A DNA stretch of 64,000 nucleotides from Candidatus Magasanikbacteria bacterium CG10_big_fil_rev_8_21_14_0_10_47_10 (GTDB lineage Bacteria; Patescibacteriota; Patescibacteriia; Magasanikbacterales; UBA922). Of this stretch, positions 3,740 through 33,908 are shown piece after piece; position 1 is the stretch's first letter; each line of letters opens with the position of its first letter. The translations under genes and the position numbers were made by a program. The notes under the pieces were generated by a model. It did not search any database. It was not told the DNA's origin and saw only the letters and a list, made by a program, of their open reading frames with translations. The stretch lies in NCBI GenBank assembly GCA_002773135.1, contig PFCB01000028.1, positions 4,203 through 68,202 on the forward strand, given 5' to 3'.

Positions 3740-3791
3740 AACTCCAGTAGTTTATCATCTTTCCGCGTCCTGCTCAATCGCTTTCTTCGCT

Positions 3792-3820
3792 TTGACCAAT
3801 GGCGAAACTATTGCTACAAT
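3792..3820 (+). promoter_or_regulatory. Sigma70-like promoter for folD (TTGACC -35, 17-nt spacer, extended TGCTACAAT -10); RBS GGAG 5 nt before ATG
   Basis: TTGACC at 3792-3797, TACAAT at 3815-3820 preceded by TGC; divergent intergenic region between the PBP gene and folD. Confidence 0.5.
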
Positions 3821-3831
3821 AGCGGAGCCCT

Positions 3832-4701: not shown

Positions 4702-4766
4702 AGAAACACGTCCTATTTGGTGAAAAATCTCAAACAGCAGCCTGTCGTGCGAAGATATATAGTTAA

Positions 4767-6086
<1,320 letters not shown>

Positions 6087-6092
6087 TAGCGG

Positions 6093-8462
6093 ATGGGTAC
6101 TAACAATATGAAATCAGGTATGGCGCATACGGTGGATACAATTGACGTCCTATCGCTTGACGATGCGCAGTTACAACGCAAATTTTTGGATTACAAAATT
6201 CAGCTCACGCGCGATGAAGCGGAAAAAATTCAACGCCATATCCTCAACCGCCCGCCAACAGTAACTGAGCTGATTTTATGGTCTATACAGGGTTCTGAAC
6301 ATTGTTCCTATAAAAGTACGCGACACCTTTTGAAACAATTTGTAACCGATGGACCCAATGTCATTTTGGGACCTGGCGAGGATGCAGGAATTGTTGAAAT
6401 TTCGCGCGATACCAGCGGACAAAAGTATGGTATTGTCATGAGTCATGAATCTCACAATCACCCATCGCAGATTGTCCCATATGAAGGAGCCGCGACCGGC
6501 ATTGGGGGGAATGTCCGTGACGTCGCCTGCATGGGTGCAAAGGTCATTGCGTGCGCGGATTCACTGCGCTTTGGAGCGCTCAACAACCCCAAAACCGGGT
6601 GGATTCACGAAGGCGTGATCGCCGGTATTGCCGGGTATGGCAATCCCATTGGTGTACCAAATATTGCCGGCGACGCGTATTATGACGAAAGCTACAATGA
6701 AAACTGCCTCGTCAACGTCGTAACGCTCGGTGTTTTGGGTGAACATGATATTATCCACTCGCGCGCGCCTGAGCATGCCGATGGCTTTGATATCATCCTT
6801 GTTGGTAAACCAACGGACAACAGCGGATTTGGCGGCGCGAGTTTTGCCTCTGTCGAACTTGCGGACGATAAAAAAGATCAAAACAAAGGAGCTGTTCAAG
6901 AGCCAAATGCTTTTTTGAAACGGCACCTGTTGAAAGCAACATACGGACTTTTTGAGTTGTTGAAAGAAAAAAATCTTATACACGCGGTTGGTTTCAAAGA
7001 TCTTGGCGCCGGCGGCATTGCCTGCGCGGCAGTAGAGCTTGCGGATAGCGCGGGCATGGGTGCTATTATTAACCTGGATCAGGTCTTTGTTGGAATGAAT
7101 GATTTGGATCCAAGCGTTATCCTCTGCTCGGAAACGCAGGAGCGATTTATGTGGGTTGCGCCGCCGGATATCACCGATATTATTGTTAAGCACTACAACC
7201 ACACATTTTCTCTCCCCCACATTGCTAAAGGGGCAATGGCCAAAGTTATTGGGACAGTAACAGACAATCCAAAATTTATCGCAACGTACCAGGGGCAGTA
7301 TGTTGTTGACGCGCCGGCGCGTGCGGTAACAGCGGGACTCAAATACGAGCGCCCATTTCAGGCGCCGCAGAGAACCTATACAGAGCCGGACCGCCCAAAC
7401 ATGTCTGCCAAGCTTGATGATTTATTTTTGCAAGTTCTATCCCACCAGCACGTATCATCGCGTTCACCTATCTATGAAAGATATGATAAGCAGGTTCAAG
7501 GAATTACTGTTATTGAACCCGGACACGCTGATGCCGGCGTGATGCGACCGTTTCATGACCCACGCTGGCCGGCCGAAATCAAAAAAATCGGCATTGCGCT
7601 GTCTGTTGATCACAACCCACGCTATTGTAAAATCAGTCCGTACTGGGGCGCTGTCAATGCCGTGGCGGAAGCATGCCGCAATGTCGCAGCCGTTGGAGCG
7701 ACACCATGGGCGCTCACTGACTGCTTGAATTTTGGCAACCCGGAAAAACCCGATCAAATGTGGGAGTTTGTCGAAGCTGTTCGTGGTATTTCCGATGCAC
7801 AGCGCGGCATTCACATTAAAGATTATCTGACAGCACCCATACCAATTATTTCCGGGAATGTTTCCCTCTACAATGAATCCGGACAGGGCGCGATAGCCCC
7901 AAGTCCTGTTATCGCCTGCCTTGGTCGTTTACGCGACGTGTCCCGGGCTATCACCATGGCATTTAAGCAGCAGGATTCCGCTATTCTTCTTGTTGGCGAG
8001 CGAAAAGATGAATGTGGAGGCAGTGTTTACTACGACATCATTGGCGAACTTGGCGCCAATGTACCAAAACCGGTCCTGCGGGACGTTGAAGCGCAAATTT
8101 TTGCGCTGACAGATGCTATTTATCATGGATATGTTTTGGCCGCGCATGATATCTCGGATGGCGGCGTTGCCGCGTGCATTGCGGAGATGTGCTTTGACAA
8201 CATGATTGGAGTGAATGCGACGATTCCGGGCAGTCTTGATCCGGAAAAATTATTATTCGGTGAAAGCGGTGGTTTTGTGATACAAGTAAAAAAAGAACGC
8301 GTAACACGCGTGGAAGAAATTTTTCAAAACAGAGGCGCGCAGGTCGTTGTGATCGGAGAGACGACGGAAAGCGAACGCATTGAACTGAATGGCTGTATTG
8401 ATGTTTTACTTACAGACGCGCGCTACGCGTGGGACAACGGTCTGCGAAAAAAATTATTGTGA
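6093..8462 (+). CDS. purL: Phosphoribosylformylglycinamidine synthase subunit PurL (FGAM synthase II)
   Basis: 789 aa; duplicated PurM-like ATP-grasp/AIRS domains; motifs SHNHPS, EGAATGIGGNVRDV. Confidence 0.85.
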   Translation: MGTNNMKSGMAHTVDTIDVLSLDDAQLQRKFLDYKIQLTRDEAEKIQRHILNRPPTVTELILWSIQGSEHCSYKSTRHLLKQFVTDGPNVILGPGEDAGIVEISRDTSGQKYGIVMSHESHNHPSQIVPYEGAATGIGGNVRDVACMGAKVIACADSLRFGALNNPKTGWIHEGVIAGIAGYGNPIGVPNIAGDAYYDESYNENCLVNVVTLGVLGEHDIIHSRAPEHADGFDIILVGKPTDNSGFGGASFASVELADDKKDQNKGAVQEPNAFLKRHLLKATYGLFELLKEKNLIHAVGFKDLGAGGIACAAVELADSAGMGAIINLDQVFVGMNDLDPSVILCSETQERFMWVAPPDITDIIVKHYNHTFSLPHIAKGAMAKVIGTVTDNPKFIATYQGQYVVDAPARAVTAGLKYERPFQAPQRTYTEPDRPNMSAKLDDLFLQVLSHQHVSSRSPIYERYDKQVQGITVIEPGHADAGVMRPFHDPRWPAEIKKIGIALSVDHNPRYCKISPYWGAVNAVAEACRNVAAVGATPWALTDCLNFGNPEKPDQMWEFVEAVRGISDAQRGIHIKDYLTAPIPIISGNVSLYNESGQGAIAPSPVIACLGRLRDVSRAITMAFKQQDSAILLVGERKDECGGSVYYDIIGELGANVPKPVLRDVEAQIFALTDAIYHGYVLAAHDISDGGVAACIAEMCFDNMIGVNATIPGSLDPEKLLFGESGGFVIQVKKERVTRVEEIFQNRGAQVVVIGETTESERIELNGCIDVLLTDARYAWDNGLRKKLL

Positions 8463-8547
8463 TGCCTTTCCGTCTGTCGATCAAGTTGAGACGAAGGACT
8501 TCCATGACGCACCCCCTTTACCCACTCCTACGAAGCAAAGCCCCACT

Positions 8548-9255
8548 ATGTCAACAGACAGTCTCTCATTGATAAGAAAAGAGCTCATGCACTATGTGGA
8601 ACCAGCATACAAAGCCGGAGCCATTCTTTTTTTTAAGGAAAAAATCAACCCACTGGGTGTACGCACACCAATTGTTCGAAAAATTGCACGCATGTATTTC
8701 CCAAAGGAGGCAACCAAACAAGAAGTCTTTGCCTTATGCGAACAGTTACTTCAAAAAAAAACATATGAGGAGACGCTTATTGCTTTTGATTGGGCTGTCA
8801 AGCAAACTCATGAATTTGAAAAAAATGATTTTGCTCGGCTTGAGCGATGGTTAAAAACATATGTCAACAACTGGGCCTTTTGTGACGACTTTTGCACGCA
8901 CGCGTTTGGCGCGTTGATTACAAGATATCCGGAACTTTTATCGAAAACAAAAAAATGGCGTGTGTCCGAAAACAGATGGCTGCGCCGCGCGTCAGCCATC
9001 ATACTGATTCATCCAATGATGAAAAAAAAGAAAGAATTTTTGAAGGATGTGTTTGAAGCAGCGGACGCACTTCTTGTTGATGACGACGATTTGGTACAAA
9101 AAGGCTATGGTTGGATGCTAAAGATAGCAAGCAATTCGTACCCTGCAGATGTGTTTCAGTTTGTTATGAAACGAAAAAACACAATGCCACGAACCGCCTT
9201 GCGCTATGCTATTGAAAAATATCCAAAAGAAATGAAAAAATCTGCAATGAAGTAA
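8548..9255 (+). CDS. DNA alkylation repair protein (AlkC/AlkD-like HEAT-repeat glycosylase family, PF08713-like)
   Basis: Start placed at internal Met (MSTDSLSL) because the upstream part of ORF 8389.. overlaps purL; motif YVNNWAFCDDFCTHAFGALI resembles the NWDLVD signature of the family; ~235 aa. Confidence 0.55.
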   Translation: MSTDSLSLIRKELMHYVEPAYKAGAILFFKEKINPLGVRTPIVRKIARMYFPKEATKQEVFALCEQLLQKKTYEETLIAFDWAVKQTHEFEKNDFARLERWLKTYVNNWAFCDDFCTHAFGALITRYPELLSKTKKWRVSENRWLRRASAIILIHPMMKKKKEFLKDVFEAADALLVDDDDLVQKGYGWMLKIASNSYPADVFQFVMKRKNTMPRTALRYAIEKYPKEMKKSAMK

Positions 9256-9257
9256 AA

Positions 9258-9290
9258 CAAAACCCCGCCTCATCCGGAGGCGGGGTTTGT
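9258..9290. terminator. Bidirectional rho-independent terminator (CCCCGCCTC-ATCCG-GAGGCGGGG flanked by A-run and T-run)
   Basis: Perfect 9-bp GC-rich stem, A-tract 5' and TTTGT 3'; sits between convergent genes. Confidence 0.75.
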
Positions 9291-9360
9291 GCCCATAGTA
9301 CACCTGTTTCTATCACGGTTGTGTGATGGAGACAGGTGTTACCATGGGCAACTCCTTTTG

Positions 9361-9849
9361 TTAGCCATCGTCAGAATCGTCTGAGTCCGCCGAGTCAAGC
9401 GTTTCGAGCCCTATATCCTCGGGCAAATCCGCCGCGCACCTCACCTGCTCGATCTTGTCGGAAATCATCCGCGCGGCCTGAAGCAGCATATGCGCGGTCA
9501 ACTCGCCGGCGATTTCATTCTCCAGGCGATATGACCCGGCGGCACACCGGATGATCCGAAATGTTTCTACACCTCCCTTGAGCGGGTTGACAATCCTGAG
9601 AATCGCGCGATCAAGCAAGTTGATCGGCTCGATAATGTGGCTCACTCGGTCGGCAAGGTCTGCCTTTCCAAGGCTCCGCAGACTTGCGGCAGCGCACAGC
9701 GTCAGCGCGGATCCGACATTGGCCAGCGCGATCATCACGCCTGGACCTACATCGCCAACCCATGCTGCCCTACTGGCCCATCTGCTACTATATCCGACAG
9801 AGTATGAAACACCGTCGCGCGTCCTCATCTGAACGATAAAATTGGCCAT
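9361..9849 (-). CDS. Hypothetical protein with acidic C-terminal tail (DSADSDDSDDG); noticeably GC-richer than neighbours
   Basis: Start placed at MANFIVQM (9849) so that it does not overlap the divergent purM start; no recognisable family from sequence alone. Confidence 0.4.
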   Translation of the reverse strand: MANFIVQMRTRDGVSYSVGYSSRWASRAAWVGDVGPGVMIALANVGSALTLCAAASLRSLGKADLADRVSHIIEPINLLDRAILRIVNPLKGGVETFRIIRCAAGSYRLENEIAGELTAHMLLQAARMISDKIEQVRCAADLPEDIGLETLDSADSDDSDDG

Positions 9850-9892
9850 TTCATTCCCCCCTTTGATTATACTTAAGCACTCCACACGCTAT

Positions 9893-10891
9893 ATGTCAAT
9901 GACGTATCAATCAGCCGGAGTCGATATCGTGGCCGGCAACCAGGTTGTCGATAATATAAAGAAACGCGTGGCGGATACGTTTTCACCCCATGTGATGACC
10001 GGCCTTGGCGCCTTTGGCGCGCTCTTTGATATTAAGGCCGCGCTCGCCCCGTACCGCTCCCCTGTTCTGGTCCAAAGTGTGGATGGTGTTGGAACAAAAC
10101 TAACCGTCGCGAAAATGATGAACCGTTTTGACACGATTGGACATGATATTGTTGCCAACTGCTGCGGTGACATTGTCGCCATGGGCGCACGCCCTCTGAC
10201 ATTTTTGGATTACGTTGCACACGAGCGACTGGACGTTGAAATCATGGACAGTATTATGAATGGCATGATTGACGCCTGTATTGAATGTGGTGTTTCTCTT
10301 GTGGGTGGTGAAACGGCGGAAATGCCCGGAACCTACACCACTGGCGAGCATGACATTGTTGGATGTGTGACCGGGGTTGTCGAGCGTGACAATATTATTA
10401 ATGGATCAGCGATACAAGCGGGTGATGTTATCATTGGCCTCTCGTCAAGTGGCCTCCATACAAATGGATATTCTCTTGCCAGAAAAATATTATTTGATGG
10501 TGCCGGCCTTGGCGTTCACTCGCGAGTAGATGGACTCGATAATTCAATCGGTGAGGAACTACTCAAACCGCATATCAACTACACGCGACCGGTTCTTGCT
10601 CTATTGGATGCCGGCATACATATAAAGGGTATCGCGCATATCACCGGAGGCGGCCTGATAGAAAATATCCCCCGCGTTCTTCCAAAGGGTATGCGCGCAA
10701 AAATATGCAAGGGGAGCTGGCCTATCCCCCCCCTCTTTCATCTGTTGGAAAAAATTGGTAAGGTAGAACCCCGTGAGATGTATAGAACCTTTAATATGGG
10801 CATCGGCATGGTGCTGATCTGTGACCCAGCAGATGCAGCATCTATTTTGCGTCAGATAAACGCGTACCGTATTGGAGATATTGTCAGGTAA
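9893..10891 (+). CDS. purM: Phosphoribosylformylglycinamidine cyclo-ligase (AIR synthetase)
   Basis: N-terminus MSMTYQSAGVDIVAGN..., PurM-family body (GLGAFGALFD, VGGETAEMPG, HITGGGL). Confidence 0.9.
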   Translation: MSMTYQSAGVDIVAGNQVVDNIKKRVADTFSPHVMTGLGAFGALFDIKAALAPYRSPVLVQSVDGVGTKLTVAKMMNRFDTIGHDIVANCCGDIVAMGARPLTFLDYVAHERLDVEIMDSIMNGMIDACIECGVSLVGGETAEMPGTYTTGEHDIVGCVTGVVERDNIINGSAIQAGDVIIGLSSSGLHTNGYSLARKILFDGAGLGVHSRVDGLDNSIGEELLKPHINYTRPVLALLDAGIHIKGIAHITGGGLIENIPRVLPKGMRAKICKGSWPIPPLFHLLEKIGKVEPREMYRTFNMGIGMVLICDPADAASILRQINAYRIGDIVR

Positions 10892-10972
10892 AAGCAGCTG
10901 GTCCCTTGCCTTCAAAAAATATTCGTAATTTCGTACAATTCCTGCCGGCAGGCAGGCGTAGTTCGTACATAT

Positions 10973-13699
10973 ATGAAGATAGCCATCATCCAATTTCCCG
11001 GCTCCAACTGCGAGCAAGAATCCAGCCAGGCCATAAAAATGGCAGGCATGGAGCCGGTTGAATTCATGTGGAATCATGACCCAAACAGCCTGAGCGAGTT
11101 TGACGGCTATTTTATTGTTGGCGGTTTTTCGTATGAGGACAGATCCCGTGCCGGCATTATCGCGGCAATGGATCCGCTTATGCCATATATTGCAGCAGAG
11201 GCGCTGAAAGGAAAACCGGTGCTTGGCATTTGCAATGGCGCCCAAATTTTGGTGGAAACGGGCCTGGTACCCGGGCTGCGGGGCAATGCCGTGGGTATGG
11301 CGATTGCCACGAACAAACGTGTGAAGCACAGCACGGTACTTGGCACCGGATTTTATAATGCCTGGGTAAACATAGCGGTATCGTGCGATCCGCACAGTTC
11401 GGCTTTTACCCGACATATGCGGCATGGCACGCCAATTCGCGTACCAGTGGCGCACGCGGAAGGCCGATTTATCATTGCCGATGAGCTGGTAACGCAAATG
11501 AAACGATACAACCAGCTCACATTTCGATACACAGACCAAAATGGCAAATGGGCTATTGAATTCCCTGACAATCCAAACGGATCGACGCAGGGCATTGCCG
11601 CGGTCAGCAACCCCGCCGGTAATGTCATGGCCATGATGCCCCATCCGGAACGGACAGACGTTGGCCAGCCCATTTTTACTTCCATGCGTGACTTTATCGC
11701 GGATGAGCGGCGCATTCAGATACGCACTCTTGACTACCGTGTACCAAAAGTCGCAGTACAAAAATATGAGCCTTCGGGCACGGGTATTGTGACGGAATTG
11801 ATCATTACGGACAATGAAGCCGTGACGGTTGAACAAACATTGCGCGCGAAAAAAATTGACGTGTCTGTATCTCGATATTCTCATTGGGCCGCGACCGGCG
11901 AAAACATATCAGCAGAGACACTATCCAAAACCGGCGAATTGTTTAACTCAAACAAAGAGCGGGTGGTAGATAATCTGCCGGCTGAAAAAAACACGCTGTA
12001 CTTGATGGTACGTGATAAAGAGGATTTTGTCGGTCAATCAAAAAAACAGACACTAAAAACGCGCTTTAGTATGAGCGGTCTGCGTGACCTTCTATACAGC
12101 CGCGTCTGGAAGATATCGGCGCAGAGTGGCAATCTTCATGAAGCGATTGAGGCGATAATGGAAACAAATATCCTATTCAACCCGCACGCGCAAGACTGCT
12201 ATATGTTTGCGCCAACTGCGGCCTCACCCGCTAAACCACAGCCTATGCAACAGGAAAAACAGCAAAACATGCCGTCATACGTGAACACAATTACGGAGCA
12301 ACGTAATAACTGTTTGACACGAACCGACGCACCGCTGGGAACGCGATTAGAAGGCAAGGTTCGCGATCGCTATGTTCAGGATGACAAAATTATTCTCATA
12401 ACCACAGACCGCCAAAGCGCCTTTGACCGCGTCCTTGCATCCATCCCTTTTAAGGGACAGGTTCTGAATCTGACCAGTGCCTGGTGGTTTGAGAAAACAA
12501 AACATATTATTCCCAATCATGTTATTGAAATCCCGGATCCAAACGTCACCGTGGGAAAAAAGGTAGATGTTTTTCCGGTTGAATTTGTCGTGCGGGGATA
12601 TATTACCGGTACGACGGATACATCTGCATGGGTTAACTACAATAAAGGCGTGCGAGATTTTTGTGGTAATCAGCTGCCGGAAGGGCTGAAAAAAAATCAA
12701 AAGTTTGACTTCCCTATTATTACGCCAACGACAAAAGCCGATGAGCACGACCGCCTTATTTCACCAAAGGATATTATTGACGAAGGCCTGATGACTCAGC
12801 AGGAATGGGATTTTTGCAGCCGTAAGGCGTTGGAGCTGTTTAGCTTTGGCCAGGCAATCGCGCGCGAGCGTGGATTGATTTTAGTGGATACTAAATACGA
12901 AATGGGCCGCGACAAGGATGGCAATATCATTCTTGTTGACGAAATTCACACACCGGACTCCAGCCGCTACTGGATCGCAGCGTCATATGAGGGACGCATG
13001 GCAAACGGCAAAGAGCCGGAAAATATTGATAAAGAATTCCTGCGACTCTGGTTTAAAGATAATTGTGATCCCTATAATGACAAGGAGCTGCCTCCTGCTC
13101 CTCCGGAGCTGGTTGCGGAGCTGTCACGCCGGTACATTATGCTCTATGAAATGATCACTGGTGAAACATTTGTCTTTCCCGAAGATGGACTGCGCGTGGA
13201 AGATAGACTGACAGAGAACCTTGCGACGTACGTCATTGAAAACAAAACACATGACACAGATACCAAAACACATATTGTTGCTGGGGAGGTAGAATTGTCG
13301 CGCGAGATGAAAGTTGTGTTAGTGCTGGGGTCAGAGAAAGACGCGGATTTTGCAAAGAGAATCACTGAGCTGCTTGCGCAGGACGGCATTGCCTTTGACC
13401 AGCACGTGGCCAGCGCGCACAAGGAAGCGGCCAAAGGCCTGGACTTGATTGAACGCTACAAGGACAAACGCGTGATCTATGTCACTATTGCCGGGAGGTC
13501 TAACGCGCTGTCCGGCTTTATGGCCGGCAATTCAGACAAGCCTGTTATCGCCTGTCCCCCATTTACTGACAAAATGGATATGCTGGTCAACATTCACTCT
13601 ACCCTGCAAATGCCAAGCAAAGTACCGGTTATGACTATTTTGGAACCTGGCAATGTTGTGCTGGCGATTAAGAGAATTATGTCACTCATTTCATCTTGA
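10973..13699 (+). CDS. Four-module fusion protein: PurQ (glutaminase) - PurS-like (possibly tandem) - PurC (SAICAR synthetase) - PurE-like (AIR carboxylase/N5-CAIR mutase)
   Basis: 908-aa uninterrupted ORF. aa 1-~240 class I GATase (MKIAIIQFPGSNCE, GICNGAQIL Cys, MPHPER His). aa ~255-430 PurS-like (AVTVEQTLRAKKIDVSVSRY ... ILFNPHAQDCYMF ~ LxNPVIEDY). aa ~445-740 PurC (LEGKVRDRYV..., ITTDRQSAFD). aa ~765-908 PurE-like (MKVVLVLGSEKD..., SAHK, VTIAGRSNALSGFMAGNSDKPVIACPP). Confidence 0.8.
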   Translation: MKIAIIQFPGSNCEQESSQAIKMAGMEPVEFMWNHDPNSLSEFDGYFIVGGFSYEDRSRAGIIAAMDPLMPYIAAEALKGKPVLGICNGAQILVETGLVPGLRGNAVGMAIATNKRVKHSTVLGTGFYNAWVNIAVSCDPHSSAFTRHMRHGTPIRVPVAHAEGRFIIADELVTQMKRYNQLTFRYTDQNGKWAIEFPDNPNGSTQGIAAVSNPAGNVMAMMPHPERTDVGQPIFTSMRDFIADERRIQIRTLDYRVPKVAVQKYEPSGTGIVTELIITDNEAVTVEQTLRAKKIDVSVSRYSHWAATGENISAETLSKTGELFNSNKERVVDNLPAEKNTLYLMVRDKEDFVGQSKKQTLKTRFSMSGLRDLLYSRVWKISAQSGNLHEAIEAIMETNILFNPHAQDCYMFAPTAASPAKPQPMQQEKQQNMPSYVNTITEQRNNCLTRTDAPLGTRLEGKVRDRYVQDDKIILITTDRQSAFDRVLASIPFKGQVLNLTSAWWFEKTKHIIPNHVIEIPDPNVTVGKKVDVFPVEFVVRGYITGTTDTSAWVNYNKGVRDFCGNQLPEGLKKNQKFDFPIITPTTKADEHDRLISPKDIIDEGLMTQQEWDFCSRKALELFSFGQAIARERGLILVDTKYEMGRDKDGNIILVDEIHTPDSSRYWIAASYEGRMANGKEPENIDKEFLRLWFKDNCDPYNDKELPPAPPELVAELSRRYIMLYEMITGETFVFPEDGLRVEDRLTENLATYVIENKTHDTDTKTHIVAGEVELSREMKVVLVLGSEKDADFAKRITELLAQDGIAFDQHVASAHKEAAKGLDLIERYKDKRVIYVTIAGRSNALSGFMAGNSDKPVIACPPFTDKMDMLVNIHSTLQMPSKVPVMTILEPGNVVLAIKRIMSLISS

Positions 13700-13707
13700 G
13701 CCTATCC

Positions 13708-13758
13708 CTTGTGTCATCCTGAACTTGTTTGCCGTGTCATCCTGAACTTGTTTCAGGA
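13708..13758. repeat. Tandem direct repeat (2 x GTGTCATCCTGAACTTGTTT, 23-bp period) whose second copy forms hairpin ATCCTGAA-CTTGT-TTCAGGAT
   Basis: Exact 20-nt copies at 13711-13730 and 13734-13753; 8-bp perfect inverted arms 13738-13745/13751-13758. Confidence 0.7.
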
Positions 13759-13779
13759 TCTCGGTACAATACGTAGTAA

Positions 13780-13800
13780 ATGCTGAAATAAATTCAGCAT
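13780..13800. promoter_or_regulatory. Perfect palindrome ATGCTGAA-ATAAA-TTCAGCAT upstream of purB; candidate operator (related to hairpin at 13738-13758; TACAAT -10-like box at 13765-13770 lies between them)
   Basis: 8-bp perfect inverted arms with 5-nt spacer; shares CTGAA-N5-TTCAG core with the upstream hairpin. Confidence 0.45.
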
Positions 13801-13881
13801 GACAACAATATGGCATAACAACACTACACAATGACATCACGATAGAGTGACAAGGAGACTTCCCTGACGAACGTTAAAAAT

Positions 13882-15243
13882 ATGAATCCCCTTTCATCCA
13901 TTTCACCAATTGACGGACGATACAGAGGCGAGGTACAAGAGCTCGCGGCGTTTTTTAGTGAAATGGCCCTGATGAAATATCGGCTCATGATTGAGGTCGA
14001 GTATTTGATTGCCCTGTCGCATGAGCGCGGTGTGCCGGAGGTAGCGCTATTCAATCCGGAACAAACTGCCTGCTTGCGAGCGGCGTATCAGCAGTTTATG
14101 CTCAATGACGCGGAAAGAGTAAAAAAAATAGAGGCCGTAACCAATCATGATGTTAAAGCCATCGAATATTTTTTGCAAATGAAGGTGAAAGGAACCGATC
14201 TGGAGAAATGCACCTCGTTCATTCACTTTGCGCTTACGAGCGAGGATGTAAACAATCTGGCCTATTCGCTGATGGTACGGGATGCACTGCATACTGTGTA
14301 TTTACCAAGCCTGCGCGCGGTCATCCGATCAATCGAAGAAAAAGCGCTGGCCTACCGTGAGCTCCCCATGCTTGCGCTCACGCACGGTCAAAGCGCCACG
14401 CCAACCACGCTAGGCAAAGAATTTTCTGTGTTTGTCTCTCGACTGTCTCGGCAACTGGAGCCGCTTTCTGCGCATCAGCTGCAGGGCAAGTTTGGTGGAG
14501 CAACCGGTACCTGGGCCGCGCATGTGGTTTCCTATCCAAATGTTGATTGGATTGGGTTTAGTAAAAAATTTATATCGAATCTAGGCCTCTCCCCGAACCT
14601 GATCACCATCCAGATAGAGGATCATGATTCATTGGCAGAGGTGTGTCACACCATGAGTCGTATCAATACCATTTTGATCGACTTTTGTCGTGATATGTGG
14701 AGCTATATCAGCCGCGGGATTATTGCGCAAAAGCCCAAAGAGGGCGAAGTCGGCTCTAGCACCATGCCGCACAAAATCAATCCGATTCAATTTGAAAATG
14801 CAGAAGGTAATTTGGGTATTGCCAATGCGTACTTTTCGCATCTGGCGGCAAAGCTCCCGATTTCCCGCATGCAGCGCGATCTTACAGACAGTACTGTTCT
14901 ACGCAACCAAGGTGTCCCACTGGCACATTCTCTTTTGGCATGTAAAAATATATGCAAAGGGCTTGAACGCGTTGCACCAAATGATATCAAGCTGCGCGAA
15001 GAACTAGATACGCATCCGGAAGTCCTTGCAGAAGCGGTTCAAACAGTATTGCGTAAGCATGGCCAGGGTGATGCCTACGAACAACTCAAGGCAGCAACGC
15101 GGGGAAAGGATATGACGCTTGAGGACCTGCGCGAGTTCATATCACATCTAGATATTTCACAGAGTGATAAAAAAAGACTCATGGAATTGAAACCAACTGA
15201 ATATATTGGTTTGGCCGAAGAAATAACAAAAAAGAATGTCTAG
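13882..15243 (+). CDS. purB: Adenylosuccinate lyase
   Basis: 453 aa; N-terminus MNPLSSISPIDGRYRGEV typical of PurB; fumarate-lyase signature GSSTMPHKINP. Confidence 0.9.
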   Translation: MNPLSSISPIDGRYRGEVQELAAFFSEMALMKYRLMIEVEYLIALSHERGVPEVALFNPEQTACLRAAYQQFMLNDAERVKKIEAVTNHDVKAIEYFLQMKVKGTDLEKCTSFIHFALTSEDVNNLAYSLMVRDALHTVYLPSLRAVIRSIEEKALAYRELPMLALTHGQSATPTTLGKEFSVFVSRLSRQLEPLSAHQLQGKFGGATGTWAAHVVSYPNVDWIGFSKKFISNLGLSPNLITIQIEDHDSLAEVCHTMSRINTILIDFCRDMWSYISRGIIAQKPKEGEVGSSTMPHKINPIQFENAEGNLGIANAYFSHLAAKLPISRMQRDLTDSTVLRNQGVPLAHSLLACKNICKGLERVAPNDIKLREELDTHPEVLAEAVQTVLRKHGQGDAYEQLKAATRGKDMTLEDLREFISHLDISQSDKKRLMELKPTEYIGLAEEITKKNV

Positions 15244-15343
15244 TGGCGTTTACTTGCATTGCTGGATGACTGGCGTGCTCACAATGCGCCGTGCATATAA
15301 CGCTGAACACCTCTGGTAAACCATACGAACTAAGAACTAATAT

Positions 15344-16816
15344 ATGTGCGGCATTATCGGTATCTACTCTCACAAACCCGTTGCGACTGAAATTTATGAC
15401 GGCATGATCCATTTGCAACACCGCGGCACTGACGCGGCCGGTATTTTGACATGCGAAAACGGCCGGTTTCATGTAAAAAAAGGCTCTGGCCTGGTTCGTG
15501 ATATATTTCACCCGGGCAACATGACACGCTTGCAAGGTAACTGGGGGCTTGGACACAATCGGTACTCAACAACAGGAGACTCTTCTGACATAGAAAACGC
15601 ACAACCACGCTATGCCAACTCGCCCTATGGTATTGCCATGGTGCACAACGGGAATCTCACCAATTATTATGATCTTAAAAAAGAGCTTGCCGAGGTGGAC
15701 CGATACAACAGCAACACTGATTCTGACATAGAAACATTGGTGAGTATTTTTGCCTCCAGACTAAATTCCCTTCCACGCCATACACCAATTTTTGAAGCCA
15801 TATGTGCAGCAGTCGAGTCTGTTTTTGATAGAGCAAAAGGTGGATATTCAGTTATTGGAATCATTGCTGGGCAAGGAATGTTTGCGTTTCGTGACCCGCA
15901 CGGCATTCGCCCTCTTGTGTATGGCGCGCGGCACAATGAAGATGGCACACATGACTATATTTTTTCATCAGAAAACACCATGTACTACCCGCTCGGCTTT
16001 CGTTTGCGCGACGATATTGGCCCGGGTGAAGTCATGCTTATCGACACCCAGGGCAACCGCTTTCGCAGAACCCTACGCCGCGACACCTTTACACCCTGCA
16101 TTTTTGAGTACGTCTATCTTGCTCGACCGGATGCTGTCATGAATAACATTTCCGTATATCGCGCGCGTTTGCGAATGGGACAGAATCTGGCTCGCAAGTG
16201 GAAACGTGAGCATCCGGATATTCTTCCTGATGTGGTTGTACCGGTTCCTTTTTCATCTAATACAGCAGCCCTGTCTATGGCACACGAGCTCGGTGTTCGG
16301 TACACTGAGGGGCTTTATAAAAATGCGTATGTGGGGCGGACGTTTATTATGCCGGGACAAGAGAAACGCCGAAAATCTGTATTGCAAAAGCTTTCACCAC
16401 AAGAAACCGAGCTTCGGGGCAAGGTTGTGATGCTTCTTGATGACTCTATTGTTCGCGGAACTACCAGTAAGGAAGTTGTCCGCCTTGTTCGCGATGCTGG
16501 TGCAGAAAAAGTATACTTTGTTTCTGCCTGTCCAGAAGTAAAATACCCAGACTTTTATGGTATTGATATACCAACACAGTCTGAGCTTATAGCATCAAAA
16601 CTGTCAGTAGAAGAAATTGAAAAATTTATTGAAGCTGATATTCTGATGTATCAAGATATTGATGATTTGGTGGAAGCAATTTTACGGCGACGTGATCATG
16701 GAATAGATCGACTCTCTATGCCATGCCTGGATGGATGGTATGTGACCGGTGATATTGATGTGGAAAAAATGGAAGAGATAGAAAGGCAGCGAACGGTGGA
16801 GCGAGCATCGGCGTAA
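15344..16816 (+). CDS. purF: Amidophosphoribosyltransferase
   Basis: 490 aa; N-terminal MCGIIGI (Ntn Cys1), PRTase domain with DDSIVRGTTS. Confidence 0.95.
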   Translation: MCGIIGIYSHKPVATEIYDGMIHLQHRGTDAAGILTCENGRFHVKKGSGLVRDIFHPGNMTRLQGNWGLGHNRYSTTGDSSDIENAQPRYANSPYGIAMVHNGNLTNYYDLKKELAEVDRYNSNTDSDIETLVSIFASRLNSLPRHTPIFEAICAAVESVFDRAKGGYSVIGIIAGQGMFAFRDPHGIRPLVYGARHNEDGTHDYIFSSENTMYYPLGFRLRDDIGPGEVMLIDTQGNRFRRTLRRDTFTPCIFEYVYLARPDAVMNNISVYRARLRMGQNLARKWKREHPDILPDVVVPVPFSSNTAALSMAHELGVRYTEGLYKNAYVGRTFIMPGQEKRRKSVLQKLSPQETELRGKVVMLLDDSIVRGTTSKEVVRLVRDAGAEKVYFVSACPEVKYPDFYGIDIPTQSELIASKLSVEEIEKFIEADILMYQDIDDLVEAILRRRDHGIDRLSMPCLDGWYVTGDIDVEKMEEIERQRTVERASA

Positions 16817-16920
16817 TTATTATTTTTATTACTTATAGTAACAAATGATTTATTGTAATGAGCGCTGATGCGTGGGAAGCACACTGCACCAACGCCCCAA
16901 GCAAACCGCCGCAGAATGTC

Positions 16921-16941
16921 CTCTCCCCTTTTAGGGGAGAG
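16921..16941. repeat. Perfect hairpin CTCTCCCC-TTTTA-GGGGAGAG immediately upstream of the DUF559 gene
   Basis: 8-bp stem, 5-nt loop, seen directly. Confidence 0.6.
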
Positions 16942-16974
16942 ACAGAGAGAGGTACAATCAAGAAAGGAGGGAAT

Positions 16975-17406
16975 ATGCAACAACAGCACAACCGTGCTCG
17001 AAGCGACGAACTGAAAGCCCGACGCAGACAGTTGCGCCAAAAGCAAACGAAGGCTGAAAAAGTATTTTGGCAAGAAGTGCGCGCCTGCCGTACTGGGTAC
17101 CACGTCCGCAGGCAGCACAATATCAGCGCTTTTATCGTTGATTTTTACTGCCATGAGGTAGCTTTGATCATAGAACTCGACGGACCGATTCACCGATATA
17201 CAAAAGACTACGACCGTTGGCGGCAAGCAAAGCTTGAAAGCTGGGGCTATTATGTCATACGATATAACAACAACGAGGTTCTCTTTGACCGAGAGCGCGT
17301 ATTGAATGAGGTTCTTCTCTTCTGTGAAGTGTTGCGTATTTCGATGGCAGTGGCTTCTAGAACCTCTCCCTGTCCCTCTCCTTGCCCTTCGCTGCGCTCG
17401 GGGTGA
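16975..17406 (+). CDS. DUF559 (Vsr-like endonuclease-domain) protein
   Basis: Start at MQQQHNRARSDELKARRRQLRQKQT; core GYHVRRQHNISAFIVDFYCHEVALIIELDGPIHRY...WGYYVIRYNNNEV matches the DUF559 pattern (RRQ...DFyc...ElDG..H....D..R...L...G..V.R..N..V). Confidence 0.75.
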   Translation: MQQQHNRARSDELKARRRQLRQKQTKAEKVFWQEVRACRTGYHVRRQHNISAFIVDFYCHEVALIIELDGPIHRYTKDYDRWRQAKLESWGYYVIRYNNNEVLFDRERVLNEVLLFCEVLRISMAVASRTSPCPSPCPSLRSG

Positions 17407-17440
17407 AGGAGAGGGAACGTTCTAAGACGCCTCTTCTCAA
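17355..17440. terminator. Long imperfect hairpin (AGAACCTCTCCCTGTCCCTCTCCTTGCCC ... GGGGTGAAGGAGAGGGAACGTTCT) overlapping the DUF559 3' end, before purD
   Basis: Arms share AGAAC and TCCCTCTCCTT cores in inverted orientation; CTCTCC motif also present in the hairpin upstream of the same gene. Confidence 0.45.
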
Positions 17441-17467
17441 CCGAATACAAGATAATTTGACCAACGT

Positions 17468-19357
17468 ATGAACATCCTCCTCATCGGATCTGGCGCAAGA
17501 GAACATGCAATCGCCAGAGCTATAAAAAAATCAAAAATACACACAAGCCTGTTTTGTTTTGGAAGCTCAAGCAATCCAGGTATTTTTGCGCTTTCAACTG
17601 GCTACGCCACCGGCACGCTGACGGCAGTGAACGATATCCTCGCATACGCACAGCTCAACCGCATTGACTGGGCAATTATTGGGCCAGAGGCACCGCTTGC
17701 CGCCGGTGTGGTGGACGCGCTGGAAGATGCCGGTATCCCCTGCGTGGGGCCACGCAAGCAGCTGGCACAGCTGGAAAGCAGCAAATCGTTTACCCGAGAG
17801 CTGATGACAAAATACAACATCCCCGGCTGTCCCAAATATACATACTTCTCTTCGCTAGAAGGCGTAGCCACATTCCTCTCTGAGCTAGGTGACGCGTACG
17901 TGATTAAGGCAGACGGCCTGATGGGTGGTAAAGGTGTAAAGGTAGCTGGTGATCACCTGACAAGCCGATACCAGGCATATGATTGGTGCAAAGAACTGCT
18001 GCATGATGGCAAGACATTTTTGATAGAAGAAAAACTGGTTGGCCAGGAATTCTCCTTTATCAGCTTGAGCGACGGAAACAACCTGGCGCACACAATATGT
18101 ATTCAAGATCACAAGCGAGCATATGAGGGCGACACCGGCCCAAATACCGGAGGCATGGGAACATACTCAGATGCCAACCACTCCCTTCCTTTTTTGGAAT
18201 CATCTAACATTGCTGCTGCCAAGCATATAAACGCACTGACAGCCGAGGCACTTCGGCAAGAATTTGGCATGGGCTACCGCGGTGTCTTGTATGGCGGATT
18301 TATGGCCACGGCTGACGGAGTTAAATTAATTGAATATAATGCACGATTTGGCGATCCGGAAGCCATGAATATTTTTGCTCTTTTGGAATCTGACTTTGTT
18401 GAGGCGTGCATGGCAACAATAGAGGGCAGACTGACACAAAATCATATGCAATTCAGTCACAAAGCAAGTGTCTGCAAATATGCAGTACCAAACGGCTATC
18501 CGGATGCCCCTGTTGCGAATCAGTTGATTAACGTTGAAGCAGTAATGAATCCTGATGCCCTTTACTTTTCCGCAGTAGACCAAAAAGCGGACGGATTGTA
18601 TGAAACAGGATCGCGAACTATTGCAGTGGTAGGCATAGCTGATACAATATTATTAGCTGAAAATAGTGCTGAAGAGGAAGTACGTAGAATTCATGGTCCC
18701 CTATTTCATAGAGCAGATATAGGAACCAAATCACTGGTTGATAAACGCGTACAAATGATGCAAGATCTGCGTGGTACGGCTTCTGTTTCTCAAAAGATAC
18801 GAATTGCAGTACTCGGCTCTACTCGAGGCACCAGTCTGCAGCCTGTTATTGATGCAATTGAGCGAGGTGGGCTTCATGGCACGATTGAAGTGGTGATCAG
18901 CAATAACCCAAATGCGTACATTTTACAGCGCGCTGCGCATCACAGTATTCCAAGCATGTACATTGATGGAGCCGGCATGACTCGTGACGAATACGATCAA
19001 AAAATCATTACCGAGCTGTCCAATTATCAAATTGATATTATTTTGCTCATTGGCTATATGCGCATTCTCTCCCCCTCCTTTGTGAAAGCGTATTCGGGAA
19101 AAATTTTAAATGTCCACCCATCTCTGCTGCCAAAGTTTGCCGGGGGCATGGACCTGAACGTACACAAAGCCGTGATTGATGCGGGTGAAACAGAAACAGG
19201 CTGCACGATTCATATGGTTGATGAGGGTGTAGATACAGGCAAAATAGTGCGGCAAAAAAAATGCGGCGTTTCGCCACTCGATACGGCAGAAAGTTTGAAA
19301 GCAAAGGTCCAGGCATTGGAAGGAGAAGCATTTATAGAGGTGATAAAATACATATGA
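17468..19357 (+). CDS. Fusion protein: phosphoribosylamine-glycine ligase (PurD, GAR synthetase) + phosphoribosylglycinamide formyltransferase (PurN, GART)
   Basis: 629 aa; N-terminal MNILLIGSGAREHAIARAI... ATP-grasp PurD (~430 aa); C-terminal IRIAVLGSTRGTSLQPVIDAI...NVHPSLLPKFAGGMDLNVHKAVIDAGETETGCTIHMVDEGVDTG formyltransferase. Stop TGA overlaps purH ATG (ATGA). Confidence 0.85.
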   Translation: MNILLIGSGAREHAIARAIKKSKIHTSLFCFGSSSNPGIFALSTGYATGTLTAVNDILAYAQLNRIDWAIIGPEAPLAAGVVDALEDAGIPCVGPRKQLAQLESSKSFTRELMTKYNIPGCPKYTYFSSLEGVATFLSELGDAYVIKADGLMGGKGVKVAGDHLTSRYQAYDWCKELLHDGKTFLIEEKLVGQEFSFISLSDGNNLAHTICIQDHKRAYEGDTGPNTGGMGTYSDANHSLPFLESSNIAAAKHINALTAEALRQEFGMGYRGVLYGGFMATADGVKLIEYNARFGDPEAMNIFALLESDFVEACMATIEGRLTQNHMQFSHKASVCKYAVPNGYPDAPVANQLINVEAVMNPDALYFSAVDQKADGLYETGSRTIAVVGIADTILLAENSAEEEVRRIHGPLFHRADIGTKSLVDKRVQMMQDLRGTASVSQKIRIAVLGSTRGTSLQPVIDAIERGGLHGTIEVVISNNPNAYILQRAAHHSIPSMYIDGAGMTRDEYDQKIITELSNYQIDIILLIGYMRILSPSFVKAYSGKILNVHPSLLPKFAGGMDLNVHKAVIDAGETETGCTIHMVDEGVDTGKIVRQKKCGVSPLDTAESLKAKVQALEGEAFIEVIKYI

Positions 19358-20943: not shown

Positions 20944-20951
20944 ATGAAGAA

Positions 20952-20982: not shown

Positions 20983-21001
20983 GTACCTATACCGGCTCGT
21001 G

Positions 21002-21232: not shown

Positions 21233-21267
21233 GATCTACCTCCTACAAAACTGATAACACAAATAAA

Positions 21268-33896: not shown

Positions 33897-33908
33897 TTCT
33901 TAAAATAT

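What the first reader, a model, noticed from the sequence alone, without database searches (positions are those of the whole stretch)
10973..13699. Single 908-aa polypeptide fusing PurQ, PurS-like, PurC and PurE modules
One uninterrupted ORF carries four purine-pathway modules in order: a class I glutamine amidotransferase (PurQ, catalytic GICNGAQIL and HPE), a ~170-aa PurS-like segment that may be a tandem PurS, SAICAR synthetase (PurC), and an AIR-carboxylase/PurE-like domain. PurC-PurE in this order mirrors eukaryotic PAICS, and PurQ and PurS are normally free-standing partners of PurL. I know of no described four-way arrangement like this in bacteria. No purK is present in the window, which may mean a class II (PurK-independent) PurE.
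Basis: partly seen in the sequence, partly recalled or inferred. Interest (0 to 1): 0.6.

Follow-up and report, generated by a model that had tools for sequence, protein, structure and literature searches.

The report
Four purine enzymes fused in one protein
One real 908-residue bacterial protein joins four parts of purine synthesis (PurQ, a built-in double PurS, PurC and a short PurK-independent PurE); it is an undescribed arrangement of well-known enzymes, made by fusing three neighbouring genes.

Summary
The ORF at 10973-13699 (+) is real and its fused layout is conserved, so it is not an assembly artefact. It has four modules. PurQ (aa 1-228) keeps an intact Cys87/His224/Glu226 triad. A middle module (aa ~269-414) matches no Pfam, NCBIfam or PDB sequence profile, but it is an internal tandem duplication. 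Its model (pLDDT 94) best matches large PurL, with free PurS chains each matching about half of it; I take this to be the PurS-like N-terminal domain of large PurL (alignment positions not shown). It is therefore a covalent PurS dimer. PurC (aa 444-754) passes its NCBIfam cutoff. The PurE (aa 780-908) is a short class II (PurK-independent) type. About 16 proteins at 47-60% identity share the layout, mostly labelled Candidatus Magasanikbacteria. The gene lies in an operon with every other IMP-pathway step, including small purL, and the 64 kb has no separate purS, purQ, purC, purE or purK. It derives from a conserved cluster, purL-purM-purQ(SS)-purC-purE(II), found in Marinimicrobia, Opitutales, some Gammaproteobacteria and Patescibacteria, whose three adjacent genes merged. 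This is a new variant of known enzymes, of moderate interest.

The parts
10973..13699 (+). Whole fusion gene (908 codons plus stop): PurQ-(PurS)2-PurC-PurE(II)
   Evidence: ORF; domains; about 16 homologues with the same architecture. The start at M1 fits position 1 of the PurQ model; a public gene call (P0001) starts at M23 and cuts off the PurQ N-terminus.
10973..11656 (+). PurQ module (aa 1-228): glutaminase subunit of FGAR amidotransferase
   Evidence: TIGR01737 scores 199.7 bits against a cutoff of 177.8. Cys87, His224 and Glu226 are invariant. The module resembles T. maritima PurQ 3D54_D with TM 0.86.
11657..11776 (+). Ordered connector between PurQ and the PurS-like module (aa 229-268; helix at 229-243)
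   Evidence: The full-length model has no low-confidence stretch here, with pLDDT about 78-84. The connector is conserved in all PurQ-X proteins.
11777..11980 (+). PurS-like repeat 1 (aa 269-336)
   Evidence: It is homologous to repeat 2 (hhalign 94%, E 1e-7). It aligns weakly but in register to a PurS profile (E 8e-4). The AF2 model has pLDDT 94. Free PurS chains 1VQ3 and 2YX5 each match one half of the model.
11981..12214 (+). PurS-like repeat 2 (aa 337-414)
   Evidence: Same evidence as repeat 1; hhalign against PurS gives E 2e-3 in register. The two repeats together match large PurL over about 150 columns, E 2.5e-4, probability 1.00; I infer that this is its N-terminal domain.
12215..12301 (+). 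Flexible Pro/Gln-rich linker 1 (aa 415-443), at the former purQ(SS)|purC gene boundary
   Evidence: pLDDT is below 50 at aa 416-434. Its length varies among homologues. In relatives a gene boundary lies at this position.
12302..13234 (+). PurC module (aa 444-754): SAICAR synthetase, long yeast/mycobacterial type
   Evidence: NF009251 scores 434.9 bits against a cutoff of 371. Best solved relatives are M. abscessus 3R9R and yeast 1A48, with TM 0.81-0.82.
13235..13309 (+). Flexible linker 2 (aa 755-779), at the former purC|purE gene boundary
   Evidence: pLDDT is below 50 at aa 756-777. Relatives have a gene boundary here.
13310..13696 (+). Short class II PurE module (aa 780-908): predicted AIR carboxylase lacking the C-terminal helix
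   Evidence: Pfam AIRC scores 94.5 bits, covering profile positions 1-128 of 148. The best solved relative is T. denticola class II PurE 3RG8 (1.4e-21), against E. coli class I at 7e-5. GSxxD, SAHK and AGRSNALSG are invariant. It fails the TIGR01162 cutoff, 85.2 against 149.6.
6093..8462 (+). purL (small PurL), the predicted docking partner of the PurQ-(PurS)2 part
   Evidence: NF002290 scores 699 bits against a cutoff of 648. It is conserved two genes upstream of purQ(SS) in about 60 of the related loci.
9842..10891 (+). purM (AIR synthetase), the gene immediately upstream, catalysing the step between PurLQS and PurE
   Evidence: Recognised from its translation; Pfam AIRS and AIRS_C on the identical gene in L001.
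3832..20943 (+). Enclosing operon: folD, purA, purL, alkD-like gene, purM, the fusion, purB, purF, DUF559 gene, purD-purN, purH
   Evidence: NCBIfam and Pfam assignments. The same gene order occurs in Magasanikbacteria GCA_001782825.1. A promoter-like site lies at 3792-3820 and a hairpin at 20950-20982.

Best explanation
The gene encodes a genuine multifunctional purine-biosynthesis protein made by fusing three adjacent genes of a conserved cluster (purQ-with-tandem-PurS, purC, short class II purE) in frame. The N-terminal half (PurQ plus a covalent PurS dimer) is predicted to dock on the separately encoded small PurL. That would rebuild, at 1:1 stoichiometry, the FGAR amidotransferase that other bacteria assemble from PurL, PurQ and two PurS, or that exists as one chain in large PurL. 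PurQ would supply ammonia from glutamine, and the PurS pseudo-dimer would do the structural and coupling job of the large-PurL N-domain. The C-terminal half is an independent bacterial analogue of animal PAICS: the class II PurE would carboxylate AIR directly with CO2, with no PurK and no ATP, and PurC would convert CAIR to SAICAR. Together with the other operon genes this gives a complete 10-step IMP pathway. Shown here: the ORF, the domain identities, the internal duplication, the PurS-like fold, the class II signatures, the conserved catalytic residues and the gene-cluster origin. Inferred: binding to PurL, catalytic activity of each module, and the oligomeric state.
For: The ORF and its domains are established. 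Catalytic residues of PurQ and PurE, many PurC positions, and six positions of the middle module are invariant across 14 homologues that are 50-61% identical. The two halves of the middle module are homologous (hhalign 94%, E 1e-7). Its AF2 model is confident (pLDDT 93.9, pTM 0.88). Foldseek's top 19 hits are all large PurL (E from 2.5e-4, about 150 columns), and free PurS chains 1VQ3, 2YX5 and 3D54_B each match half of the model (TMt 0.54-0.63). The literature states that PurL:PurQ:PurS is 1:1:2 and that the large-PurL N-domain is PurS-like (PMC10912719, PMC3261824). A PurS HMM finds nothing in the window or in 84 related loci, although PurS is easily detected between distant species. The module always occurs alongside small purL. 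The PurE is closest to class II enzymes, and SAHK occurs in 72 of 73 and AGRSNALSG in 70 of 73 family members, matching the human PAICS active site (PMC9376930). purK is absent from the window and from every related locus except L004, whose three-module fusion lacks PurE and whose locus instead carries class I purE (SAHR, AGGSAHLPG) next to purK. The cluster purL-purM-purQX-purC-purE2 is complete in about 49 of the 85 loci examined (including the window), with intermediate fusions PurQ-X-PurC and PurC-PurE2. In the full-length model the only segments with pLDDT below 50, apart from a short loop at aa 53-56 inside PurQ, are the two former gene boundaries.
Against: The middle module has no significant sequence similarity to PurS: there is no Pfam hit, a profile search of PDB sequences finds nothing at E<=10, and hhalign probabilities are only 14-25%. 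The PurS assignment therefore rests on a predicted structure plus context. The tool did not report where on large PurL the model aligns, so placing the match on the N-domain is an inference. The PurE module lacks the C-terminal helix that wraps neighbouring protomers in solved PurE octamers, and it fails the NCBIfam PurE cutoff, so its oligomeric state and efficiency are uncertain. The phosphate-loop Ser (human Ser276) is Lys in the window protein (GSEKD). The genome outside the 64 kb could not be searched for purS or purK. No reads were mapped, and no biochemistry exists.
Confidence: 0.8

Rival explanations
1. The middle module is not a functional PurS equivalent. It would be a different ferredoxin-like adaptor, for example a regulatory or ligand-binding (ACT-like) domain or a mere spacer, and PurS would be encoded elsewhere or not needed.
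For: No sequence-level match to PurS or to the large-PurL N-domain. The beta-alpha-beta-beta-alpha-beta fold type is common, and lower Foldseek hits include RRM and GlnK-like proteins. The rest of the genome could not be searched.
Against: The specific top hits are all FGAR amidotransferase (19 large PurL entries at probability 0.96-1.00, then PurS), while unrelated ferredoxin-like folds have probability 0.25 or less and rmsd around 18 A. The module is a tandem of two PurS-sized units, matching the 2 PurS per complex. It is always fused to PurQ and next to small purL, and none of 85 loci has a purS. The in-register alignment to PurS is weak but consistent for both halves.
Confidence: 0.08
2. 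The PurE-like module does not act as an AIR carboxylase. It would be either a class I N5-CAIR mutase relying on a purK elsewhere, or a mainly structural oligomerisation scaffold whose truncation has impaired catalysis.
For: It lacks the C-terminal helix, covering Pfam profile positions 1-128 of 148 and ending at T. denticola PurE residue 131 of 159. It is below the TIGR01162 cutoff. One homologue (P0011) has SAHR. The genome outside the window is unseen.
Against: It is far closer to class II enzymes (1e-21) than to class I (1e-10 to 1e-3). All class II active-site motifs are invariant. No purK occurs in 84 of 85 loci, and the one exception pairs purK with a true class I purE. Without this module the operon has no route from AIR to CAIR.
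Confidence: 0.09
3. The single ORF is an assembly, frameshift or chimera artefact that joins separate purQ, purS, purC and purE genes.
For: Close relatives do have these as separate, overlapping or abutting genes. Reads could not be mapped. One apparently separate module gene (L085) turned out to be an artefact of a scaffold gap, which shows that such errors occur in these data.
Against: The identical protein is recorded on three contigs (one retrieved, L001). About 16 homologues at 47-60% identity from different samples and assemblers keep the same fused frame, with variable in-frame linkers. All modules stay in one frame with no internal stop.
Confidence: 0.02

Closest known systems
PurLQS complex (small PurL + PurQ + 2 PurS; B. 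subtilis, T. maritima 3D54)
   Same: It has the same three components. PurQ is homologous (3D54_D, E 2.3e-25, TM 0.86). There are two PurS-fold units per PurQ, and a separate small PurL is encoded nearby.
   Different: The two PurS units are covalently joined to each other and to the C-terminus of PurQ. Their sequences are too diverged for any PurS HMM to detect. The same chain also carries PurC and PurE.
Large PurL (single-chain FGAR amidotransferase; Salmonella 1T3T, human 9N9W) and archaeal 'mdPurL'
   Same: A PurS-like pseudo-dimer is built into a larger polypeptide instead of free PurS, and the middle module's best structural matches are large PurL. mdPurL likewise carries a PurS-like extension and its hosts mostly lack purS (PMC3261824).
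   Different: In large PurL and mdPurL the PurS-like domain is N-terminal to the PurL synthetase domain. Here it is C-terminal to PurQ and PurL stays separate, which is a different way of reaching the same assembly.
Animal PAICS (bifunctional SAICAR synthetase + class II AIR carboxylase; 2H31, 6YB8, 4JA0)
   Same: The module order is the same (PurC then PurE) and so is the PurE class. SAHK and AGRSN(G/A)L match the active site. PAICS is the best whole-protein structural hit, aligning across both modules (469 columns, E 1e-23).
   Different: The PurC belongs to the yeast/mycobacterial long subfamily (34-36% identity, against 22% to PAICS). The PurE lacks the C-terminal helices. The fusion arose independently from adjacent bacterial genes and carries an extra PurQ-(PurS)2 half.
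Treponema denticola PurE (bacterial class II AIR carboxylase, 3RG8)
   Same: It is the closest solved relative of the C-terminal module (E 1.4e-21) and has identical SAHK and AGRSNALSG motifs and the CPP motif.
   Different: The T. denticola enzyme is a free-standing 159-aa protein. The window's module stops at the equivalent of its residue 131 and so lacks the last ~28 residues, as does the whole subfamily in this gene cluster.
Red-algal and other eukaryotic PurE-PurC fusions (Galdieria, Gracilariopsis and others)
   Same: They use the same PurC subfamily (60-68% identity) and the same class II PurE signatures.
   Different: The module order is opposite (PurE then PurC) and there is no PurQ or PurS part.

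Membership tests
PurQ (FGAM synthase I, class I glutamine amidotransferase) | Score above the curated family cutoff | tested here: met
   TIGR01737 scores 199.7 bits against a cutoff of 177.8; Pfam GATase_5 scores 149 bits against 27.
PurQ (FGAM synthase I, class I glutamine amidotransferase) | Cys-His-Glu catalytic triad | tested here: met
   Cys87 (GICNGAQ), His224 and Glu226 (PHPE) are invariant in 14 homologues.
PurS | Sequence match to a PurS profile (Pfam PF02700 or solved PurS sequences) | tested here: not met
   There is no Pfam hit at E<=10. A profile of the module finds nothing among PDB sequences at E<=10. hhalign against a four-sequence PurS alignment gives only 14-25% probability, although the alignment is in register.
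PurS | PurS fold of about 80 aa | tested here: met
   The AF2 model has pLDDT 93.9. PurS chains 1VQ3_C, 2YX5 and 3D54_B each align to one half of it over 76-80 columns, with TM 0.54-0.63 normalised to PurS. This rests on a predicted structure, not a solved one.
PurS | Two copies per PurL/PurQ, forming a dimer | tested here: met
   The module is a tandem duplication of two homologous units in one chain. The pair matches large PurL over about 150 columns, which I infer to be its pseudo-dimeric N-domain.
PurS | Genomic association with small purL and purQ, with no other purS | tested here: met
   The module is fused to PurQ and small purL lies in the same operon. A PurS HMM finds nothing in the window or in 84 related loci. 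The rest of the genome was not searchable.
PurS | Physical assembly with PurL and PurQ, and requirement for glutamine-dependent FGAM synthesis | not testable with these tools
   This needs biochemistry or a complex structure.
PurC (SAICAR synthetase) | Score above the curated equivalog cutoff | tested here: met
   NF009251 scores 434.9 bits against a cutoff of 371; Pfam SAICAR_synt E 1.4e-69.
PurE superfamily (AIRC) | Pfam AIRC above the gathering score | tested here: met
   94.5 bits against 30.
PurE superfamily (AIRC) | NCBIfam purE equivalog-domain cutoff | tested here: not met
   TIGR01162 scores 85.2 bits against a cutoff of 149.6. The model is dominated by class I enzymes, and the C-terminal part is missing here.
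Class II PurE (AIR carboxylase) | Class II active-site signatures: SAHK (Lys, not Arg) and AGRSNxL (not AGGAAHLPG) | tested here: met
   S814-A-H-K817 and A840-G-R-S-N844 are invariant. SAHK occurs in 72 of 73 and AGRSNALSG in 70 of 73 family members. The class I control in L004 has SAHR and AGGSAHLPG. Human active-site residues come from PMC9376930, and the Arg-to-Lys difference from PMC10484210.
Class II PurE (AIR carboxylase) | Closer to characterised class II than to class I enzymes | tested here: met
   T. denticola PurE 1.4e-21, B. mori PAICS 8e-18 and human PAICS 1.6e-14, against class I at 1.5e-10 to 3e-3.
Class II PurE (AIR carboxylase) | No PurK needed or present | tested here: inconclusive
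   There is no purK in the 64-kb window or in 84 of 85 loci. The whole genome was not available.
Class II PurE (AIR carboxylase) | Full PurE protomer including the C-terminal helix, and an octameric assembly | tested here: not met
   The module ends at T. denticola PurE residue 131 of 159 and at Pfam profile position 128 of 148, and the whole subfamily is short. The oligomeric state cannot be tested here.
Animal-type PAICS | PurC then PurE(II) on one chain | tested here: met
   The module order is shown, and PAICS 6YB8 aligns across both modules.
Animal-type PAICS | Common origin with PAICS, that is, the same PurC subfamily | tested here: not met
   The PurC is closest to the M. abscessus and yeast type (E 5e-44, 34-36% identity), against 22% identity to PAICS. 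The fusion derives from adjacent bacterial genes.

The most novel reading that the evidence does not exclude
The fusion could be the core of a bacterial 'mini-purinosome'. The PurE module would oligomerise, as PurE does in PAICS, and display several PurC and PurQ-(PurS)2 arms. Each arm would recruit a small PurL, so that steps 4, 6 and 7 (with PurM encoded next door) are held in one assembly of megadalton size that could channel labile intermediates. Separately, the short helix-less class II PurE could define a new oligomeric form of the enzyme.
Probability: 0.2. Interest if true: 0.7.

Novelty: new variant of a known kind. Interest (0 to 1): 0.45.

Why it matters
The result matters in four ways.

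1. It exposes a sizeable unannotated family: PurQ with a built-in tandem PurS. There are about 460 clusters at 50% identity, in at least 156 species genomes. Current HMM libraries miss the PurS part, so pathway reconstructions would wrongly score these organisms (Marinimicrobia, Opitutales, Patescibacteria and others) as lacking PurS, and often PurE.

2. It shows a third evolutionary route to the FGAR amidotransferase assembly, with the PurS dimer attached to PurQ rather than to PurL. This bears on the unsettled question of what PurS does and in what form.

3. It gives a bacterial, independently evolved PAICS-like fusion with a minimal class II PurE, which is useful for comparing how fusion and channelling evolve in purine synthesis.

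4. It places a complete, compact, PurK-independent purine pathway in a probable Patescibacteria genome. From general knowledge, that group is usually described as unable to make nucleotides de novo.

None of this involves new chemistry.

Tried and rejected
- **Pfam on the middle segment alone (E<=10):** no hit.
- **Profile of 28 middle segments against all PDB sequences (E<=10):** no hit. Sequence methods cannot name this module.
- **hhalign of each half against a four-sequence PurS alignment:** in register but weak, E 8e-4 and 2e-3 with 14-25% probability. I use it only as supporting evidence.
- **Genome scan with the divergent alignment A1:** It was repeated successfully with a tighter subset, A2.
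- **Free-standing tandem PurS gene:** the apparent 140-aa gene (P0302, L085) is an artefact. A run of Ns lies between purQ and the module, and the called gene starts mid-strand. The short 140-200 aa hits are therefore not evidence for a stand-alone form.
- **Rfam over the whole window:** only a tRNA, and no purine or ZTP riboswitch.
- **Promoter and terminator scan:** the number of sites is not significantly above shuffled sequence.
- **Literature:** searches for PurS/PurQ fusions and for Magasanikbacteria purine synthesis found no description of this architecture. The T. denticola PurE paper is not in the held library.
- **Assembly-artefact reading:** rejected because the fused frame is conserved.
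- **LarB-like reading of the PurE module:** rejected. The LarB match is only E 7e-4, whereas all PurE class II motifs are present.
Full report

The window has an uninterrupted ORF of 908 codons at 10973..13699 on the + strand. Pfam places three domains on it:
- GATase_5 (PurQ) at aa 2-228
- SAICAR_synt (PurC) at aa 460-704
- AIRC (PurE) at aa 780-904

NCBIfam agrees. PurQ TIGR01737 scores 199.7 bits against a cutoff of 177.8. PurC NF009251 scores 434.9 bits against a cutoff of 371, covering aa 444-754.

The ATG at 10973 is the right start, because the PurQ model aligns from its position 1. A public gene call for the identical protein (P0001, 886 aa) starts at Met23 and removes the PurQ N-terminus.

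The fused frame is not an artefact:
- The identical protein is recorded on three contigs, of which one (L001) was retrieved.
- About 16 proteins at 47-60% identity from other samples have the same four-module layout. Among them is OGH58845.1 from Candidatus Magasanikbacteria RIFCSPHIGHO2_01_FULL_33_34, which is labelled 'hypothetical protein' or 'PurC'.

Reads could not be mapped.

**2. The middle segment**

Sequence methods fail on aa 229-443:
- Pfam finds nothing even at E<=10.
- A profile of 28 homologous segments (alignment A1) finds nothing among all PDB sequences at E<=10.

Three other lines of evidence identify it.

First, the two halves of the segment (aa 269-336 and 337-414) are homologous to each other over their full length (hhalign 94%, E 1e-7). 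It is therefore a tandem duplication of a unit of 70-80 aa, the size of PurS.

Second, an AlphaFold2 model built on A1 is confident (pLDDT 93.9, pTM 0.88) and shows the same beta-alpha-beta-beta-alpha-beta unit twice.

Third, Foldseek against the PDB gives specific matches:
- The top 19 hits are all large single-chain PurL (human 9N9W, E 2.5e-4; Salmonella 1T3T and its mutants). They align over about 150 columns with probability 0.96-1.00.
- Free PurS chains (1VQ3_C, 2YX5, 3D54_B) each match one half, with 76-80 columns and TM 0.54-0.63.
- Unrelated ferredoxin-like proteins score far worse.

The tool does not report where on large PurL the model aligns. The N-terminal domain is the PurS-like part of large PurL (PMC3261824), so placing the match there is my inference.

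A small profile of four solved PurS sequences (checked) aligns to each half in the correct register, but weakly (E 8e-4 and 2e-3).

I conclude that the segment is a covalent PurS dimer. This rests on a predicted structure and on context, not on sequence homology.

**3. The C-terminal module**

Its best solved relatives are class II enzymes:

| Relative | Class | E-value |
|---|---|---|
| Treponema denticola AIR carboxylase 3RG8 | II | 1.4e-21 |
| Bombyx mori PAICS | II | 8e-18 |
| Human PAICS | II | 1.6e-14 |
| Class I N5-CAIR mutases | I | 1.5e-10 to 3e-3 |

The human AIR-carboxylase site is built from MGSTSD, SAHK and VAGRSNGL (PMC9376930). Class I enzymes have Arg in place of the Lys (PMC10484210).

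The window protein has LGSEKD, SAHK and IAGRSNAL. G786, S787, D790, S814-A-H-K817 and A840-G-R-S-N844 are invariant in 14 homologues.

The module ends at the equivalent of T. denticola PurE residue 131 of 159, and at Pfam profile position 128 of 148. It therefore lacks the C-terminal helix, and it falls below the NCBIfam PurE cutoff (85.2 against 149.6 bits).

This is not a local truncation. Among 73 PurE genes or modules of this family, 72 have SAHK, 70 have AGRSNALSG, and nearly all stop within 0-4 residues of the same point. It is a distinct short class II-type subfamily.

**4. Context**

The gene lies in an operon:

| Gene | Coordinates |
|---|---|
| folD | 3832-4701 |
| purA | 4779-6086 |
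| purL (small form) | 6093-8462 |
| alkD-like gene | 8389-9255 |
| purM | 9842-10891 |
| the fusion | 10973-13699 |
| purB | 13882-15243 |
| purF | 15344-16816 |
| DUF559 gene | 16858-17406 |
| purD-purN fusion | 17468-19357 |
| purH | 19261-20943 |
| guaB (minus strand) | 21721-23265 |
| guaA | 23353-25269 |

Every step to IMP is encoded, provided the fusion supplies the PurQ, PurS, PurE and PurC activities.

Six-frame searches of all 64 kb find no second PurQ, PurS, PurC or PurE and no PurK. The same operon with the same fusion occurs in Magasanikbacteria GCA_001782825.1.

**5. Where it came from**

A profile of the tandem-PurS module finds about 460 cluster representatives among 1.84 billion proteins. 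Most are 410-450 aa with the module at about aa 255-420, that is, PurQ-(PurS)2. Databases name them only 'PurQ'.

A scan of species-representative genomes found 156 genomes with the module. They are mostly Marinimicrobia/Fidelibacterota, plus Opitutales, some Gammaproteobacteria MAGs and Patescibacteria.

I classified 85 loci, including the window:
- About 49 carry the complete cluster purL-purM-purQ(SS)-purC-purE(II) as tightly packed or overlapping separate genes.
- Most of the others are cut short by contig ends.
- None has a PurS-HMM hit.
- Only one has purK. That locus (L004) has a three-module PurQ-(PurS)2-PurC protein and, nearby, a true class I purE (SAHR, AGGSAHLPG) next to purK. It is a natural control that supports the class assignment.

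Other Magasanikbacteria (L007, L042, L056, L072) still have three separate genes. PurC-PurE2 two-module proteins also exist.

The window's protein is therefore the end product of stepwise in-frame fusion of neighbouring genes. The full-length AlphaFold2 model fits this (mean pLDDT 80). Apart from a short loop at aa 53-56 inside PurQ, only aa 416-434 and 756-777 have pLDDT below 50, and these are the two former gene boundaries. The older PurQ-to-PurS junction is ordered.

Cluster proteins are 60-76% identical between phyla, which suggests that the whole cluster has moved horizontally.

**6. How it most likely works**

The following is inference from established knowledge of these families.

Small PurL needs one PurQ and two PurS (PMC10912719). 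Here one chain supplies exactly that complement. The N-terminal half should therefore dock on the separately encoded PurL and rebuild a large-PurL-like FGAR amidotransferase at 1:1 stoichiometry.

The C-terminal half should act like PAICS. The class II PurE would carboxylate AIR with CO2, without PurK or ATP, and PurC would make SAICAR.

The best whole-protein structural match is human octameric PAICS, aligned across both modules (469 columns, E 1e-23), although the relative orientation of the modules is undefined. Whether the helix-less PurE still forms an octamer, and whether the fusion gathers several PurL copies into one large assembly, is unknown.

**7. Comparison with what is known**

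PurS-like domains built into larger chains are known, but they are attached to PurL. Examples are large PurL and the archaeal mdPurL (PMC3261824). Attachment to the C-terminus of PurQ is a different arrangement.

PurC-PurE fusions are also known:
- Animal PAICS has the same module order but a different PurC subfamily (22% identity, against 34-36% to the yeast and mycobacterial enzymes).
- Red-algal fusions use the same PurC and PurE subfamilies but in the reverse order.
- This PurC type is also found fused to PurM, PurD and PurK-PurE(I).

Purine genes are therefore generally prone to fusion, which tempers the surprise.

I found no paper that describes PurQ-(PurS)2 or the four-module protein. 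The search covers open-access text only.

**8. Verdict**

This is a new variant of known enzymes, not a new system. Its value is mainly for annotation (a hidden PurS and a short class II PurE), for the evolution of the FGAR amidotransferase, and for bacterial PAICS-like fusions. Interest is 0.45.

Noticed in passing
window 17468-19357 (+): A second purine-gene fusion lies in the same operon. One 629-aa ORF carries PurD (aa 1-423) and PurN (aa 445-628). In the related Magasanikbacteria locus L002 these are two separate genes.
   Followed up: partly
window 30300-33900 (both strands): An island of 63-64% GC sits in a window that is otherwise about 46% GC. The + strand ORF at 30426-32639 (737 aa) has four MopE-type putative metal-binding repeats (E 1e-35). 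Long antisense ORFs with no family match overlap it. The island could be a foreign insertion or reflect the composition of the repeats.
   Followed up: partly
window 8389-9255 (+) and 16858-17406 (+): Two unrelated genes are inserted in the purine operon: an AlkD-like DNA alkylation repair gene between purL and purM (Pfam DNA_alkylation, E 6e-56), and a DUF559 endonuclease-like gene between purF and purD-purN. The first ATG of the alkD-like ORF overlaps the end of purL by about 74 nt, so its true start may lie further downstream.
   Followed up: no
L005-L084, compared with window 6093-13699: PurL, PurM, PurC and PurE of this cluster are 60-76% identical between the window and loci labelled Marinimicrobia, Gammaproteobacteria, Opitutales and Patescibacteria. 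This suggests horizontal transfer of the whole purL-purM-purQ(SS)-purC-purE(II) cluster between phyla.
   Followed up: partly
L085 5255-6423: The apparently free-standing 140-aa tandem-PurS gene is an artefact. A run of Ns (a scaffold gap) separates purQ from the module, and the called gene begins mid-strand at MIITDNEA. The short hits should be read with this in mind.
   Followed up: yes
P0033-P0060: Red-algal and related eukaryotic proteins (Galdieria, Gracilariopsis and others) are PurE-PurC fusions. They use the same PurC subfamily and the same class II PurE signatures (SAHK, AGRSNALSG) as the bacterial cluster, but in the reverse order. This hints at a shared origin of the gene pair.
   Followed up: partly
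window 35000-64000 (-): A long minus-strand cluster encodes surface-polysaccharide and nonulosonic-acid synthesis genes: NeuB, a DegT aminotransferase, UDP-GlcNAc 2-epimerase, several GT1/GT4 glycosyltransferases with methyltransferase domains, and an APH-kinase/class III aminotransferase fusion at 37181-39544. Two UDP-glucose/GDP-mannose dehydrogenases and an epimerase lie at 25440-29319.
   Followed up: no
P0011, P0013 (sequences): Two four-module homologues of about 820 aa have a shortened tandem-PurS module, with deletions inside both repeats. One of them (P0011) has SAHR instead of SAHK in the PurE module.
   Followed up: no
window 3500-21500 and 1813-1886 (-): Rfam finds no purine or ZTP riboswitch anywhere in the window. 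The only hit is a tRNA at 1813-1886 on the minus strand. A promoter-like site (TTGACC-17-TACAAT with an upstream TG) lies at 3792-3820 just before folD, and a strong hairpin lies at 20950-20982 just after purH.
   Followed up: no
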